A stretch of DNA of 64,000 bases from a virus, in the IMG/VR virus record IMGVR_UViG_3300021962_000032, one strand, 5' to 3'. The position numbers and the translations under genes were made by a program. The notes under the pieces were generated by a model. It had not been told where the DNA came from and did not search any database. It was given only the letters and a program-made list of their open reading frames with translations. Shown here piece after piece: positions 18,754 to 33,276 of this stretch; the first letter of the stretch is position 1; each line of letters begins with the position of its first letter.

Positions 18754-19266
18754 TTAGATCCATTCAGGTTTTCGTTGCGGCATACGAAGATAATTAGATG
18801 CAACCCAAGGTTTGGATGCGATATACATCTTGTAAGCAGTAAAAGTGTCAATGCTTGTATCAAATTTATACTCATCTGGCATAGCACGGGTAAATTCGGT
18901 TACTTCAGTGATCTTCCCCTTAGGAAACAGATAATAAGCATCCACAAGTGTCTTGTAGCAAGAATGAGTTTTTCCATAACGGAGTGCATATTCATCACAG
19001 AGATTCATTCCATGCTTGATCAACCAATAGGCATTATGAATACTTTCAAGTGCCCATTTCGTACATGGATGATTACGGAAAGCACCCTTCTCAGTTTTGT
19101 AGGGTGTATCATCAGATTTATAGAGATTGCCGTATCCATGCCCCCATTTGTCAGACGCAACAATGGAAAGCATTTGACAGCACTCCAGAGGCATCTTAAC
19201 GATATGCTTATCGGGCAGACAGATGGCAGATTCTGCTGGCCAAGGAGAAGTCACAAAGATGTTCAT
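18754..19266 (-). CDS. Pyrimidine-dimer DNA glycosylase/DenV-like protein
   Basis: 'MNIF...DKHIVKMPLECCQMLS...HPCTKW...EY..RYGKTH...AMPDEYK'. Confidence 0.75.
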   Translation of the reverse strand: MNIFVTSPWPAESAICLPDKHIVKMPLECCQMLSIVASDKWGHGYGNLYKSDDTPYKTEKGAFRNHPCTKWALESIHNAYWLIKHGMNLCDEYALRYGKTHSCYKTLVDAYYLFPKGKITEVTEFTRAMPDEYKFDTSIDTFTAYKMYIASKPWVASNYLRMPQRKPEWI

Positions 19267-19481
19267 AATGAAAGTTCAATGATTTTAGAGGCATCGATGA
19301 CTGAGAAGAATGCTTCCAGACCAACTACGTCCCATGCCCGTATCTTAACAGCAAATGGGATCATTGCCAAGTTCCCGATCAGTCGTGCAATGCATCCAAT
19401 CTTAACGTCAACATAAAGAATAAGGAAGTATCCCACTATAAGCAGGACACTTCCCAAAATTCTAAGAACAGTAGATGTCAT
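19263..19481 (-). CDS. Small multi-pass membrane protein
   Basis: 72 aa with about three hydrophobic helices; coupled to both neighbours by ATGA overlaps. Confidence 0.65.
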   Translation of the reverse strand: MTSTVLRILGSVLLIVGYFLILYVDVKIGCIARLIGNLAMIPFAVKIRAWDVVGLEAFFSVIDASKIIELSL

Positions 19482-26846: not shown

Positions 26847-27419
26847 TTAACTATATCTTCTTGGTAAATGTCTTCCTTCTTTATCTGTAATATTATACAT
26901 CATATATTTAAAACTTACAGTAGCTGTAAAGTATGCCTCATCTGTATTTGTGGCATCAAATTGAAGTTCCGACAATCTGTAGGGAAACATTCTTCTGAAT
27001 ACAACTTGGTAATTTAAATTTAAATTACTATTTAATATGAATAATGTTCCGTCAGAATATAGATTCATTTCACCACCTTGATTTACAACATAGTTGTCTG
27101 CATCAGATTGGTAATCGTATATTTGAGCAAGAGATTCTGGAAATCCAAGACCTCTCATCCAATTTTGTATTTCCATAAAGTTGGTCAAATCTTCATCAAC
27201 TATAAAATCCAATTCAAAATCTTCAAATACCATATTATCACCAGGAACTGGAATAGGATTTGTGAGATAGTTTGAATGGTTTGCAACTCCCAAAGTAATT
27301 CCTGGAACTACTGCCTTGTTTGCATAGAATGCAGTTTTGGGAGAACGATTTAAAATAAAAGTAAAACCTGTACTTGATAGATAATTTCTATTCTCTATCT
27401 GCCCTCTTCTTGTAGCCAT
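26847..27419 (-). CDS. gp3: Tail tube terminator / tail completion protein gp3
   Basis: 'NYLS...F...PG....G...F..F.VDEDL.N..EI.NWMRGLG...FPY.LS...FD'; position after g23. Confidence 0.88.
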   Translation of the reverse strand: MATRRGQIENRNYLSSTGFTFILNRSPKTAFYANKAVVPGITLGVANHSNYLTNPIPVPGDNMVFEDFELDFIVDEDLTNFMEIQNWMRGLGFPESLAQIYDYQSDADNYVVNQGGEMNLYSDGTLFILNSNLNLNYQVVFRRMFPYRLSELQFDATNTDEAYFTATVSFKYMMYNITDKEGRHLPRRYS

Positions 27420-27442
27420 TTATGGAAAGACCCTTATTGGTC

Positions 27443-27449
27443 TATTTAT
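27443..27449 (-). promoter_or_regulatory. Late promoter ATAAATA for g3
   Basis: Motif 23 nt upstream of the ATG. Confidence 0.65.
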
Positions 27450-27536
27450 CTATTGGTATGCATGTGTAAGACCCCAATAAACATATAACCCTATTGAAGA
27501 AAATAAGATTAAAGCATTTATTAATACCCTTGTCAT
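27450..27536 (-). CDS. 28-aa single-TM microprotein MTRVLINALILFSSIGLYVYWGLTHAYQ (NdhQ-like), not in the ORF track
   Basis: Translated by hand; fills the g23-g3 gap; TATAAATA 6 nt upstream of the ATG; W-x-L-x-x-A-Y C-terminus. Confidence 0.6.
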   Translation of the reverse strand: MTRVLINALILFSSIGLYVYWGLTHAYQ

Positions 27537-27542
27537 TATCGG

Positions 27543-27550
27543 TATTTATA
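27543..27550 (-). promoter_or_regulatory. T4-type late promoter TATAAATA for the 28-aa microprotein
   Basis: Exact consensus, downstream of the g23 terminator. Confidence 0.75.
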
Positions 27551-27572
27551 CTCATGTACATATTTTATGTAT

Positions 27573-27601
27573 AAAAAAAGACCCCCCATTCGGGAGGTCT
27601 T
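27573..27601 (-). terminator. g23 terminator
   Basis: AGACCTCCC-GAAT-GGGGGGTCT followed by a T-run. Confidence 0.9.
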
Positions 27602-27624: not shown

Positions 27625-29082
27625 TCACATGAGGTTCTTAACAGCAACTCTTCTGTAGTAACGGTTGCTGTTTGTAAGAATACGTCCAAGACCCTGGCCT
27701 GTGCCTTCTGCGAATGGGTTTGCAACCATTCCATAACGGGTCTTAAAGCCGATCTTAGGCTGGAAAGTATTCTCTCCAACTGCACGTACCATCTGGAGAG
27801 GTACATATGGGCAGTAGAAAAGTCCTGCGTCATAAGGTGAAGAACCCTTATATCCAATAACATAGTATTGGGTTGCAGCATTATTTGCCGAATAAGGATC
27901 GATATAAACGCGGAATTTGCCCATCAGAACACCAGCAAAGGTGTTACCAGTGTCATCAACGTTCAGGTTTGCGTTGAGTGCTGGGGTGTAGTCAAGTACT
28001 CCTGCCATGGTCAGTGCCGAAGCAACGTCAGCAGAGCACATGATTACGTTGCCCTTTCCTCTACGAGTTCTTTGTGCAATCTGGTTCGCATCTCTTTCGA
28101 TTTGGAACAGAAGACCCTTGAACTTCTCAACTGACCAACGACCGTTGGAGTCAACGTCGAGGTCGAATACACCAGGAGTTGCAACGTTGAGGGTTGCACC
28201 CTGCTCAGCAACCTTGTAGATGGTTCTGATGACTTCACGGTTGATTTCAGCAAGAATCTCTGTTGAGAGAATGTTTGCTAATTCCGCTTCAGCATTCAGA
28301 CCATGGATTGCCTTCAGGTCTTGTGCAAGCTCAAGGCTGTATTCTGCCTTCAGTGCTCTTGACTTGGCTTCAACAAGAACCTTCTCGATTGAGAATGCCA
28401 TCTCGTTGAACTGATCGCCACTTCCAAGTGCCTCAGAAGTTGCGGTGTCCATTGCCTGACCAACTTTATAGTCAAGCTCACTTGCTGTTGCAGTTGGGTT
28501 CAGGAGACCTGGGTTATTTTGTGATCCACCAGCTGCGGGAGGAGCATCGGCAGTAGTACCCATACCAACAGAAGCACCGGATCCTGCTTCTCTGGTGTAC
28601 TGTCCAAGAGGACCATTGAATCCAGAATCTTGTCCGGAGAAAGATGTATCTGGCTCATTGAACAGAGCTTCTGCACCGTTCTGGTCATTGTAACGTGATC
28701 TCATTGCGAAGATGAGTCCTGTTGGTCCGTTCATTGGTTGAACGCCAGCAAGATCATATGCAACAAGGTTTGGCATTGAACGTCTGATCAATGAGATCAG
28801 TACGGGATCAAAACCTGCTACTGGACCTGCAGAATCTGCAGCTCCACCGAATCCAGGACCACCAACTCCATTACCACCTACGGCGCCGGAATTTGTATTT
28901 ACGGTTGGAGTTTCGGTGAGAAGACCACCAGCATTAAATGCTGATTGCTCTCTTAAAAACTTTTCTTGATTTTCTAACAGGACTGCGGTTACGGCTCTTC
29001 TGTGGGAATCATTGATTGGATCGCATCCTTCGTGATTCAGAAGAGGTGCCCACTTTTCCTGCAATCTTTCTGATTGAAACAT
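27625..29082 (-). CDS. gp23: Major capsid protein gp23
   Basis: KWAPLL, AGFDPVLISLIRR.MPNL.AYD..GVQPM, EINREV, FQPKIGFKTRYG. Confidence 0.99.
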   Translation of the reverse strand: MFQSERLQEKWAPLLNHEGCDPINDSHRRAVTAVLLENQEKFLREQSAFNAGGLLTETPTVNTNSGAVGGNGVGGPGFGGAADSAGPVAGFDPVLISLIRRSMPNLVAYDLAGVQPMNGPTGLIFAMRSRYNDQNGAEALFNEPDTSFSGQDSGFNGPLGQYTREAGSGASVGMGTTADAPPAAGGSQNNPGLLNPTATASELDYKVGQAMDTATSEALGSGDQFNEMAFSIEKVLVEAKSRALKAEYSLELAQDLKAIHGLNAEAELANILSTEILAEINREVIRTIYKVAEQGATLNVATPGVFDLDVDSNGRWSVEKFKGLLFQIERDANQIAQRTRRGKGNVIMCSADVASALTMAGVLDYTPALNANLNVDDTGNTFAGVLMGKFRVYIDPYSANNAATQYYVIGYKGSSPYDAGLFYCPYVPLQMVRAVGENTFQPKIGFKTRYGMVANPFAEGTGQGLGRILTNSNRYYRRVAVKNLM

Positions 29083-31381: not shown

Positions 31382-31400
31382 TATTTATATTAATATTTAT
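31382..31400 (-). promoter_or_regulatory. Tandem late promoters (ATAAATA 31394-31400; TATAAATA 31382-31389)
   Basis: Consensus motifs. Confidence 0.7.
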
Positions 31401-31560: not shown

Positions 31561-33276
31561 TTATTTTTTGCTATTTATACCATTCACTGGTTTTGTTGTT
31601 GGAGGTTCTGCAACTTTTGCACTAAAATCTGGAGGTGTAGAATCCAAAGGGACTGTTCCAGAAGCACCATTAATTGCATCACCTCCAGTAGGAAGAGGTA
31701 ATCCAGTTTCTGGATCAATTGGTGCATTTGGATCTGGTATTTTTCCAGATTTAATTTCTTTTTTAATTTTTTGATCTTCTTCTATAATTTCTTGATCTGT
31801 TTGATGAAGAATCTTACTTCTGACATATTCTTGAGAAAAATATTTGCCAATATAAGGTTCTGCAGTTGCAGCAAGATTTAATCTTTCCGTCATAAGTTCT
31901 GCATCCTTAAGTTCAGAGAAGTGATTATCATAAAGAAAATCATATTGTATATGTTGGGACATTTCTTCCCAATCTTCAGGAGTGATAATGTTCTTAAGAA
32001 CTAATTGTGTTTTTAATAAATCGTGAAAAAGATTTGAAAATCTTTTTCTAAGACGACCTACAAATTTAGTAAATTTAAGTTCATCCCTTAAAATTTCTGA
32101 AGATCTTCCAAGATTGAATCCACCTTCACCTTCCATTCTTGAGGGAGGAACATTTAATGATCTATAAAGTTTTGCTTGAAAATATTTAATATCTGTAATT
32201 TCTCCTAAATTTTGTCCACCAGGAAGAGTTGTAATTTCAGTTCCACGACCACCTTCTCTACGAGGTAACCAGAAGTCCTCAAGCATACTCATGAATTTTT
32301 TATCGTCACGAATTTCTCCGGTGTTTGCATCGTACACCATTTTATTTCTATAACGCATCATTACATCACGAAGGTATTGCTCGGCTTTCATTTTAGGAAG
32401 ATTTCCCACATCGATGTAAAAAATTCTTCTTTCTGGCGCTCTTGATAATCTATAAATGACAAGAGAATCCTCAATCATGCGAAGTTGATTGAGAGATTTA
32501 ATTGCTTTATTCAGATAAGACAAAACAATTTTTTTATTTCTATCTACTAATCCTGAAGTACAATAAGCTACAGCATCTCTAGCAATCTTTATTCCAGATT
32601 TTGATGCTGAATGCATGTCCATTATTGTGGCATTTCTTCCAGCAGTCCCTTGTCCGGGAGTATATAAAAAATATTCATAAATTTCCGGAAAAGGATAATT
32701 TAATGGATTCTCTTCTTTTCCTGGTGTATTAGTTGGTATAGATGCTCCAGAAGCATCTCTTTTCTTTTTTTCCTTTCTAACATAACGAATATTCATGGGA
32801 TCAATATATCTTAACTCTTGAATCCCATCTTGTGGTCTTTTAAAATCAATTACTTTATGGTAAAAGATTCTTCCATCTACATACCAACTTCTATAAATCT
32901 CATGACACTTCTTATCAAAATCCAATAAATTTAAAATATGTTTAAATTCTTCTCTAATTTTAGTTTTAATTCCATCACTTGCTTTCAAATTTGATAATTC
33001 AATTTGAACTGGCGCATCATTAGAATCTGAAACAATAGCTTCATTAACAATATCTTCAATGGCACTATCCACCTCTGGATGAAGTGCCATCTCTCTATAT
33101 CTTTTAATTAATTCAAATTCATTTCTATATACGCCTTCAATATCTACATAAGAACCAAAAAATCCAGACGTTAAATAATGATCAACCCCATCCTCGTTGT
33201 TGACGGGGACGGGGGATAATGCAGATTTTGGTAATTTATTATCGTCTTCAATAGAAAATCCGAACAATTTAGTCAT
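31561..33276 (-). CDS. gp20: Portal protein gp20
   Basis: LFGFSI, HPEVDSAIEDIVNE, RAPERRIFYIDVGNLPK, EDFWLPRREGGRGTEI. Confidence 0.99.
   Translation of the reverse strand: MTKLFGFSIEDDNKLPKSALSPVPVNNEDGVDHYLTSGFFGSYVDIEGVYRNEFELIKRYREMALHPEVDSAIEDIVNEAIVSDSNDAPVQIELSNLKASDGIKTKIREEFKHILNLLDFDKKCHEIYRSWYVDGRIFYHKVIDFKRPQDGIQELRYIDPMNIRYVRKEKKKRDASGASIPTNTPGKEENPLNYPFPEIYEYFLYTPGQGTAGRNATIMDMHSASKSGIKIARDAVAYCTSGLVDRNKKIVLSYLNKAIKSLNQLRMIEDSLVIYRLSRAPERRIFYIDVGNLPKMKAEQYLRDVMMRYRNKMVYDANTGEIRDDKKFMSMLEDFWLPRREGGRGTEITTLPGGQNLGEITDIKYFQAKLYRSLNVPPSRMEGEGGFNLGRSSEILRDELKFTKFVGRLRKRFSNLFHDLLKTQLVLKNIITPEDWEEMSQHIQYDFLYDNHFSELKDAELMTERLNLAATAEPYIGKYFSQEYVRSKILHQTDQEIIEEDQKIKKEIKSGKIPDPNAPIDPETGLPLPTGGDAINGASGTVPLDSTPPDFSAKVAEPPTTKPVNGINSKK

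What the first reader, a model, noticed from the sequence alone, without database searches (positions are those of the whole stretch)
27450..27550. Hidden 28-aa NdhQ-like membrane microprotein with its own late promoter, between g23 and g3
Seen in sequence: MTRVLINALILFSSIGLYVYWGLTHAYQ*, below the ORF-track cutoff. It is insulated from g23 by a terminator and begins 6 nt after TATAAATA, implying a leaderless late mRNA. From memory, the single-TM NdhQ subunit of cyanobacterial NDH-1L ends in a similar segment (..ISAVLILG.I..LI.W[AG]L..AY.), matching the I-x-A...I...W-G-L-x-x-A-Y pattern; this is unverified. Inference: a phage mimic of a photosynthetic complex I subunit that tunes cyclic or respiratory electron flow (ATP supply) during packaging, which would be an auxiliary metabolic gene inside the capsid module.
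Basis: partly seen in the sequence, partly recalled or inferred. Interest (0 to 1): 0.75.

Follow-up and report, generated by a model that had tools for sequence, protein, structure and literature searches.

The report
Unannotated phage copy of NdhQ
A never-annotated 28-codon gene between the capsid gene g23 and the tail gene g3 of this T4-like cyanophage is a real, shortened copy of the host's NdhQ. NdhQ is a one-helix subunit that helps hold the photosynthetic NDH-1L complex together, so the phage probably props up that energy complex late in infection.

Summary
The ORF MTRVLINALILFSSIGLYVYWGLTHAYQ* lies at 27536..27450 on the minus strand. A strong terminator hairpin follows g23, and TATAAATA ends 6 nt before the ATG.

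The NdhQ reading is supported. A profile of canonical NdhQ picks this frame out of 1660 window frames (E 5.7e-5). A profile of picocyanobacterial NdhQ does so at E 2e-8. Profile-profile comparison gives 96% probability (E 3.5e-9), far above 300 shuffled controls. The host family is named NdhQ in some GenBank and UniRef records.

The gene is under purifying selection (dN/dS about 0.15 among syntenic copies). At least 251 viral contigs carry relatives, and 49 of the 80 kept have ndhP within 2 kb downstream.

What is special here is the position. Only this phage and its three closest relatives carry the gene in the g23-g3 spacer, as an inserted late-promoter-plus-ORF module.

Binding to NdhD1, stabilisation of NDH-1L and the leaderless mRNA are inferred, not shown.

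I found no paper reporting a phage NdhQ. Earlier notes of this scan describe the same gene in at least 7 other phage genomes. I class it as a new member of a known kind (cyanophage NDH-1 auxiliary genes).

The parts
27625..29082 (-). g23, major capsid protein gene (upstream neighbour)
   Evidence: Pfam PF07068 Gp23 E 5.6e-151. megablast hits to major capsid genes of Synechococcus phages.
27568..27601 (-). Intrinsic terminator after g23: 10-bp stem AAGACCTCCC/GGGGGGTCTT, 4-nt loop, U-tract
   Evidence: Terminator scan. Fold -17.1 kcal/mol, z -3.1. The stem is conserved and the loop varies in 3 related contigs.
27543..27550 (-). T4-type late-promoter motif TATAAATA, 6 nt upstream of the ATG
   Evidence: 11 of the 12 TATAAATA sites in the window are on the coding strand. 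TATAAAT and the 6-nt spacing are conserved in L176, L177 and L178. Promoter activity was not tested.
27450..27536 (-). 28-codon gene for a shortened NdhQ homologue (one TM helix plus C-terminal WGLTHAY), stop codon included
   Evidence: Translation. NdhQ HMMs E 5.7e-5 and 2.1e-8. hhalign 96%, E 3.5e-9 with shuffled controls. dN/dS about 0.15. Syntenic orthologues.
27443..27450 (-). Second late-type motif GATAAATA, overlapping the stop codon, 23 nt before the g3 ATG; probably g3's own promoter
   Evidence: Sequence. ATAAATAG is conserved in all 4 related contigs. Relatives without the ORF have CTAAATA or ATAAATA at the same distance from g3.
26847..27419 (-). g3-like tail tube/tail completion gene (downstream neighbour)
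   Evidence: phrog_45 'tail tube' E 2.4e-33. The gene after g23 is annotated gp3 in S-SSM7 and 'tail tube protein' in S-SCSM1 and DSL-LC03.

Best explanation
The ORF is a functional phage gene derived from the host's ndhQ. NdhQ is the one-helix, oxygenic-photosynthesis-specific subunit that, together with NdhP, clamps NdhD1 (and NdhF1) onto the NDH-1M core to form NDH-1L.

The phage version keeps the transmembrane helix and the C-terminal W-G-L-x-H-A-Y motif. It has lost the short hydrophilic N-terminal tail: it is 28 aa, against 37-40 aa in picocyanobacteria and 45 aa in Thermosynechococcus.

In this phage lineage the gene was inserted, with its own TATAAATA late-type promoter, between the g23 terminator and g3's own late promoter. 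It should therefore be made together with the structural proteins.

Inferred mechanism: the peptide inserts into the thylakoid membrane and occupies the NdhQ site on NdhD1. This keeps NDH-1L assembled while host protein synthesis fails, and so sustains cyclic and respiratory electron flow and ATP supply late in infection.

Shown: the gene is real, conserved and under selection; it is homologous to NdhQ; and its relatives in other phages are linked to ndhP.

Inferred: transcription from TATAAATA, leaderless translation, membrane insertion, binding to NdhD1, and a stabilising effect.
For: Homology:
- A canonical NdhQ HMM (25 sequences, no picocyanobacteria) scores this frame at E 5.7e-5 and 19.3 bits among 1660 window frames; the next best is 0.31.
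- A picocyanobacterial NdhQ HMM scores it at E 2.1e-8 and 30.2 bits.
- hhalign of the phage family (A5) against canonical NdhQ (A4) gives probability 96.1%, E 3.5e-9 and score 38.8. It aligns phage residues 4-28 to NdhQ 21-45, end to end at the C-terminus.
- 300 column-shuffled controls gave mean scores of 9.0 and 9.5 and a maximum of 25.6.
- The peptide is 54% identical to a Synechococcus NdhQ over the aligned columns. Several hosts carry exactly WGLTHAYP.

The host family is NdhQ:
- T. elongatus NdhQ, and the canonical profile, hit this small ORF as the best whole-genome six-frame match (E 4e-6 to 2e-4; 4e-8 to 5e-4 in 5 of 5 genomes).
- Some records name it 'NADH dehydrogenase subunit NdhQ' (UniRef100_A9BBN7, Synechococcus RS9915, A18-40, A15-28).
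- It is present in 222 of 251 genomes of that family.

Coding:
- dN/dS is 0.16 (window vs L176; pS 0.39, pN 0.08) and 0.15 (L176 vs L177). The median is 0.33 over 581 viral pairs.

Spread and linkage:
- 251 viral contigs were confirmed by tblastn.
- Complete in-frame ORFs lie in unannotated gaps of S-SRM01, S-MbCM7, S-CAM9 and S-SCSM2R.
- An ndhP-like gene lies 0.3-2 kb downstream in 49 of 80 viral loci.
- S-SCSM2R also carries ndhD and ndhP (PMC12801897).

NdhQ function: NdhP and NdhQ sandwich NdhD and contact NdhF, lipids and beta-carotene, and deleting them disassembles NDH-1L (PMC6992706, PMC7021789, PMC11794437).

Insertion module: relatives with g3 at 77% identity or less have a 70-100 nt spacer made of terminator, late motif and g3 only.
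Against: - The phage profile does not recover the T. elongatus NdhQ chains from the PDB at E<=10. Scored directly, that NdhQ gets only 6.4 bits, although other canonical NdhQs reach 25 bits. The link therefore rests on profiles and on picocyanobacterial intermediates.
- The invariant canonical N-terminal motif NRGIMKF..GAD is absent. It is also absent from the picocyanobacterial hosts' own NdhQ.
- All similarity lies in about 25 residues of a hydrophobic helix.
- No expression, localisation or binding data exist. TATAAATA counts in the window are not above chance overall (12 found, 8.9 expected).
- With only 6 nt between motif and ATG, the late transcript might start at or past the ATG.
- No ndhP was found in the 91-kb record, which is 48% complete.
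Confidence: 0.7

Rival explanations
1. The peptide is an NdhQ-derived decoy. It occupies the NdhQ site on NdhD1, but because it lacks the N-terminal tail it weakens or remodels NDH-1L instead of stabilising it. For example, it might free NDH-1M, or build a phage-specific complex with phage NdhD and NdhP.
For: The N-terminal tail present in all host NdhQ sequences is missing in every short phage form. The phage family has its own conserved signature, LF[GS]SIGLF.YWGLTHAYP, distinct from the host's LLGGIG.FIVWGL.NAYP.
Against: Co-occurrence with ndhP in 49 of 80 loci, and with ndhD in S-SCSM2R, fits supply of NDH-1L parts better than sabotage. Known cyanophage photosynthesis genes mostly sustain host function (established knowledge). 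The missing tail is only about 9 residues relative to the actual hosts.
Confidence: 0.12
2. It is a real small membrane protein of NdhQ ancestry that now acts on another target. One possibility is another thylakoid complex. Another is a late membrane function such as lysis timing, in keeping with its late-promoter context.
For: Its position in the late structural module is unlike all other family members. There are weak, non-significant PHROG hits of relatives to a holin family (E 0.066) and of profile A1 to PetM (E 1).
Against: The C-terminal motif shared with NdhQ is strictly kept (W, G, A and Y invariant). The syntenic copies are clearly the same family as the ndhP-linked copies. No significant match to any other family was found.
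Confidence: 0.08
3. The ORF is not translated in this phage. The stretch would be a g3 leader and promoter region, or a decaying relic, and its conservation would reflect RNA or promoter function.
For: No Shine-Dalgarno sequence. The promoter motif is only 6 nt from the ATG. The exact peptide is absent from a 15-billion-protein collection, so it has never been called as a gene.
Against: Substitutions between syntenic copies are mostly synonymous (pS 0.39-0.77 against pN 0.08-0.15). The frame is intact in all 4 contigs. NdhQ HMM E 2e-8. Relatives lacking the ORF manage with a 70-100 nt spacer.
Confidence: 0.05

Closest known systems
Picocyanobacterial NdhQ (37-40 aa; e.g. Prochlorococcus MIT 9211 P9211_13181 / UniRef100_A9BBN7; Synechococcus RS9915, A18-40, A15-28)
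   Same: A single TM helix ending in VWGL-x-[NH]-AYP. About 50-57% identity over the shared 27 residues. The phage HMM scores these at 29-44 bits. Some hosts have the identical WGLTHAYP.
   Different: The host proteins carry about 9-11 extra N-terminal residues (MENGGS[DE]ST). The phage peptide starts one residue before the host's internal Met. The host gene is chromosomal, lying between thiE-like and ribF-like genes in G375.
Thermosynechococcus NdhQ, chain Q of NDH-1L structures 6HUM, 6KHI, 6L7O, 6NBY (45 aa)
   Same: The TM helix and C-terminal W-x-L-x-x-A-Y are in the same register relative to the C-terminus. This is the experimentally placed subunit, which contacts NdhD1, NdhF1 and beta-carotene.
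   Different: Only 7 of 22 residues are identical. The phage peptide lacks the invariant N-terminal NRGIMKF-x-GAD segment. Direct HMM similarity is weak (6.4 bits). It is not recovered in PDB searches with the phage profile.
Cyanophage NdhP (P-TIM68; S-SCSM2R ORF226) and other phage NDH-1 genes (ndhI, ndhD)
   Same: A phage-borne copy of a one-helix NDH-1L-specific stabiliser. In 49 of 80 viral loci ndhP lies 0.3-2 kb downstream of the NdhQ-like gene. Same class of auxiliary metabolic gene.
   Different: A different subunit with an unrelated sequence. NdhP is annotated and published in phages. I found no paper reporting a phage NdhQ. No ndhP was found in this 91-kb record.
PetM, cytochrome b6f subunit VII (1VF5_F)
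   Same: A small one-helix thylakoid subunit with an FVGWGLG stretch. It was the best small-subunit hit of the first 5-sequence profile.
   Different: The match is not significant (E 1) and disappears with the 20-sequence profile. In PetM the WGL lies mid-helix, not at the C-terminus.

Membership tests
NdhQ (NDH-1L subunit Q) | Significant sequence or profile similarity to bona fide NdhQ | tested here: met
   Canonical HMM E 5.7e-5 and picocyanobacterial HMM E 2.1e-8 among 1660 frames. hhalign 96.1%, E 3.5e-9. The real score of 38.8 compares with a shuffled maximum of 25.6. Caveat: the phage profile does not retrieve the T. elongatus chain from the PDB.
NdhQ (NDH-1L subunit Q) | A single transmembrane helix followed by a C-terminal W-[AG]-[LV]-x-x-A-Y motif 1-6 residues from the end | tested here: met
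   Hydrophobic stretch V4-L23, then WGLTHAYQ*. W, G, A and Y are invariant across phage and host alignments. The register matches NdhQ residues 38-44 of 45.
NdhQ (NDH-1L subunit Q) | Conserved hydrophilic N-terminal segment (canonical MSDLNRGIMKF-x-GADSP; picocyanobacterial MENGGS[DE]ST) | tested here: not met
   It is absent: the phage peptide begins about 20 residues before the W. The canonical NRGIMKF motif is also absent from the hosts' own NdhQ. I therefore read the peptide as a truncated member, not a full-length one.
NdhQ (NDH-1L subunit Q) | Physical association with NdhD1/NdhF1 in NDH-1L | not testable with these tools
The host NdhD1 was identified (L260, E 6e-241 to 6HUM_D) and alignments A5 and A6 were prepared.
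NdhQ (NDH-1L subunit Q) | Loss destabilises NDH-1L, and the protein complements an ndhQ mutant | not testable with these tools
   This needs genetics and BN-PAGE. The published phenotype is in PMC11794437.
T4-type late promoter | TATAAATA on the coding strand, upstream of a late gene | tested here: met
   The motif lies at 27550..27543. 11 of the 12 sites in the window are on the coding strand, most of them 27-49 nt before gene starts. It is conserved in relatives. Activity and the start site were not tested.
Cyanophage auxiliary metabolic gene | A host-derived metabolic or photosynthetic gene in a phage genome with the host homologue identified | tested here: met
   The window is a T4-like cyanophage. 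The host homologue is present in 222 of 251 picocyanobacterial genomes.
PetM / PetN (cytochrome b6f small subunits) | Significant similarity to the PetM or PetN chains in the PDB | tested here: not met
   PetM reached E 1 with profile A1 only. Nothing appeared with A5 or with the single sequence.

The most novel reading that the evidence does not exclude
The phage peptide is not a simple spare part. It would be a late-expressed, leaderless, tail-less NdhQ that remodels the host NDH-1L. It could act alone as a dominant competitor of host NdhQ, or, in phages that also carry ndhP and ndhD, as part of a phage-specified NdhD/NdhP/NdhQ distal module. Its relocation under a late promoter in this lineage would then retime that remodelling to the assembly and packaging phase.
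Probability: 0.15. Interest if true: 0.75.

Novelty: new member of a known kind. Interest (0 to 1): 0.55.

Why it matters
Cyanophages are known to carry ndhI, ndhD and ndhP. A phage NdhQ completes the pair of one-helix clamps that make NDH-1L, the complex for cyclic electron flow and respiration.

The gene is widespread: 251 viral contigs were confirmed and it is present in several cultured phages. Yet it is unannotated everywhere I looked, because it is under 30-45 codons. It is therefore a concrete example of a missed phage microprotein with a testable host target.

This window adds a variant context. Here the gene is a self-contained late-promoter module inside the capsid/tail gene block. 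That suggests selection on when NDH-1L is supported, and it offers a natural comparison (AMG-cluster copy against late-module copy) for experiments.

Tried and rejected
- Single-sequence and profile searches of the PDB with the phage peptides found no NdhQ at E<=10. The top hits were an ND5 helix fragment (E 0.03), PetM (E 1) and ATP synthase subunit i/j (E 0.38). I treat all as chance.
- Pfam, NCBIfam and PHROGs gave only sub-threshold hits: MnhF-like, TIGR03758 and a holin family.
- tblastn with one host NdhQ found nothing, because of the low-complexity filter. A DNA search with a host locus was a wasted call.
- The weak T. elongatus NdhQ hits in four small genomes had internal stops and were discarded.
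- I asked whether window ORF 19266..19481 might be ndhP. It is not: it is a two-helix protein of phrog_2318.
- ndhP searches in this record and in four related records were empty. All of these records are partial.
- Complex prediction (peptide family against host NdhD1) was unavailable.
- Structure prediction does not accept proteins under 30 aa.

Full report
**Setting.** The window is part of a 91-kb IMG/VR record of a T4-like cyanomyovirus, estimated 48% complete. All genes run on the minus strand. The finding is flanked by g23 (27625..29082, Pfam Gp23 E 5.6e-151) and the scaffold gene g22 upstream. Downstream lie a g3-like tail-tube family gene (26847..27419, phrog_45 E 2.4e-33) and uvsY. 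The nearest cultured relatives by g23 DNA are all Synechococcus phages of the Kyanoviridae.

**Observation.** On the minus strand the sequence after the g23 stop reads as follows:
- a 10-bp GC-rich hairpin with a U-tract (27601..27568);
- TATAAATA (27550..27543);
- the six bases CCGATA;
- ATG (27536) opening MTRVLINALILFSSIGLYVYWGLTHAYQ, with stop TAG at 27452..27450;
- GATAAATA, overlapping that stop (27450..27443);
- 23 nt further on, the g3 ATG (27419).

The hairpin is a good intrinsic terminator. It folds at -17.1 kcal/mol with z -3.1, and the scan found 4 terminator-like sites where 0.1 were expected. TATAAATA occurs 12 times in the window. That count is not above chance (8.9 expected), but 11 of the 12 lie on the coding strand, mostly 27-49 nt before gene starts.

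**Is it a gene?** tblastn of the peptide against 50,697 phage records returned only Synechococcus phages. In S-SRM01, S-MbCM7, S-CAM9 and S-SCSM2R the matches are complete ATG-to-stop ORFs of 26-34 codons. They lie in unannotated gaps between same-strand genes and all end in WG[LV]x[HN]AY.

A pattern-plus-tblastn scan of IMG/VR found 547 matches to F[IV]xWGLx[NH]AY, of which 251 were confirmed. The 80 loci kept hold 41 distinct peptides.

Among 80 loci fetched through the g3 protein, only the three closest carry the ORF in the g23-g3 spacer (g3 identity 96%, 86% and 86%), with HMM E about 1e-9. Their DNA alignment shows an intact frame, a conserved terminator stem, a conserved TATAAAT with the same 6-nt spacing, and a conserved ATAAATAG after the stop.

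Substitutions are mainly synonymous. Window vs L176 gives pS 0.39, pN 0.08 and dN/dS 0.16. L176 vs L177 gives 0.15. The median is 0.33 over 581 pairs of viral copies. This is a protein-coding gene under purifying selection.

I recovered the full 45-aa gene from a Thermosynechococcus genome. Searching 401 cyanobacterial genomes with it found canonical NdhQ at E 1e-10 to 1e-16 in the large genomes. In small picocyanobacterial genomes it gave only weak hits.

One of those weak hits is a 43-codon ORF ending VFIVWGLTNAYPGSVI. That ORF defines a family present in 222 of 251 genomes of the same family. The canonical NdhQ profile picks it as the best whole-genome six-frame hit in 5 of 5 genomes tested (E 4e-8 to 5e-4). 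Some GenBank and UniRef records already call it 'NADH dehydrogenase subunit NdhQ', for Prochlorococcus MIT 9211 and Synechococcus RS9915, A18-40 and A15-28. Others call it hypothetical. Several hosts have exactly WGLTHAYP.

Results for the phage peptide:
- A canonical-only HMM scores its frame at E 5.7e-5 and a picocyanobacterial HMM at E 2.1e-8. Both are against all 1660 frames of the window, where the runners-up are at 0.3-0.5.
- hhalign of 20 phage peptides against 19 canonical NdhQ sequences gives 96.1% probability, E 3.5e-9 and score 38.8, aligned to the C-terminus.
- 300 column-shuffled controls averaged 9 and peaked at 25.6.
- The honest weak point is that the phage profile does not find the T. 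elongatus chain in the PDB. That sequence scores only 6.4 bits, whereas other canonical NdhQs reach 25 bits and picocyanobacterial ones 29-44 bits.

**Anatomy relative to NdhQ.** The phage peptide equals the host NdhQ minus its hydrophilic N-terminal tail. That tail is about 9-11 residues in picocyanobacteria and 17 in Thermosynechococcus, where it includes the invariant NRGIMKF-x-GAD motif. Many viral homologues have an in-frame upstream extension (MNSLKNHLLTRMKKM...) that could give 43-47-aa forms. The window's copy cannot, because a stop lies three codons upstream of its ATG.

**Context and mechanism.** In other phages the gene sits in AMG clusters near petE, PTOX, gnd, zwf and talC. In 49 of 80 viral loci an ndhP-like gene lies 0.3-2 kb downstream on the same strand. 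S-SCSM2R carries ndhD and ndhP, plus the unannotated NdhQ-like ORF at 182744..182848. None of 43 distinct upstream regions in those loci has an ATAAATA motif within 60 nt.

Relatives lacking the ORF have a 70-100 nt g23-g3 spacer made of terminator, CTAAATA or ATAAATA, and g3. So in this lineage a promoter-plus-ORF module was inserted between the terminator and g3's own late motif.

Published structures place NdhP and NdhQ on opposite faces of NdhD1, contacting NdhF1, lipids and beta-carotene. Deleting them disassembles NDH-1L into NDH-1M. The most likely mechanism is therefore that the peptide occupies the NdhQ site and keeps NDH-1L assembled late in infection. This is inference.

From my knowledge of T4 late promoters, transcription starts about 6 nt after the motif. 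That would make this mRNA leaderless or give it a 1-nt leader, but nothing here tests that.

**Novelty.** Papers in the searchable library report phage ndhI, ndhD and ndhP. NdhQ appears with phage terms only in the title of a cited reference. The exact peptide is absent from a 15-billion-protein collection.

Earlier AI notes of this scan describe the same phage NdhQ in at least 7 other genomes, usually bracketing gnd or PTOX with ndhP. I formed my reading before seeing them. I re-tested their main claims here: the homology, the NdhQ naming of the host family, and the ndhP linkage. What is new in this window is the late-promoter module inside the structural gene block.

**Not available.** Complex prediction and sequencing-run look-ups could not be used.

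Noticed in passing
window 19266..19481 (-): A 71-72-aa two-helix membrane protein (phrog_2318, E 3e-21, function unknown) lies between a denV-like glycosylase gene and gp45. Homologues lie 1-2.5 kb downstream of the NdhQ-like gene in 17 of 80 viral loci.
   Followed up: partly
L096-L175 (viral loci), upstream of the short-form start: Many viral NdhQ-like ORFs have a conserved in-frame N-terminal extension (MNSLKNHLLTRMKKM, MSYLKNLQLTRTKKM) that would give 43-47-aa forms. S-SRM01 keeps the same residues with no upstream Met, so the true start is unclear.
   Followed up: no
L177, L178 around 1365-1385: In these relatives TATAAATA has become TATAAATG. This weakens the consensus and creates an upstream in-frame ATG (MRIMTRV...).
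   Followed up: no
window 27428..27443: A small hairpin (AGACC-AATAAG-GGTCT) lies between the second late motif and the g3 ATG. It is present only in the window's copy, not in L176-L178.
   Followed up: no
window, 12 TATAAATA sites: The strand bias is 11:1 towards the coding strand, although the total count is at chance level. The sites at 1747-1754, 31382-31389 and 31572-31579 have no long ORF close downstream and might precede other small genes or RNAs.
   Followed up: no
L043 1483..1614; cluster 1: The host ndhQ of a marine Synechococcus lies between divergent thiE-like and ribF-like genes. In Synechococcus KORDI-49 and KORDI-52 the 39-aa NdhQ is named 'thiamine-phosphate pyrophosphorylase', apparently an annotation carried over from the neighbouring gene.
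   Followed up: no
DSL-LC03, S-SSM7, S-SCSM1 g23-g3 spacers: The g23-g3 spacer is a variable insertion site. Other cyanophages hold unrelated hypothetical genes there (228 aa, 324 aa, or 104 + 57 aa).
   Followed up: no
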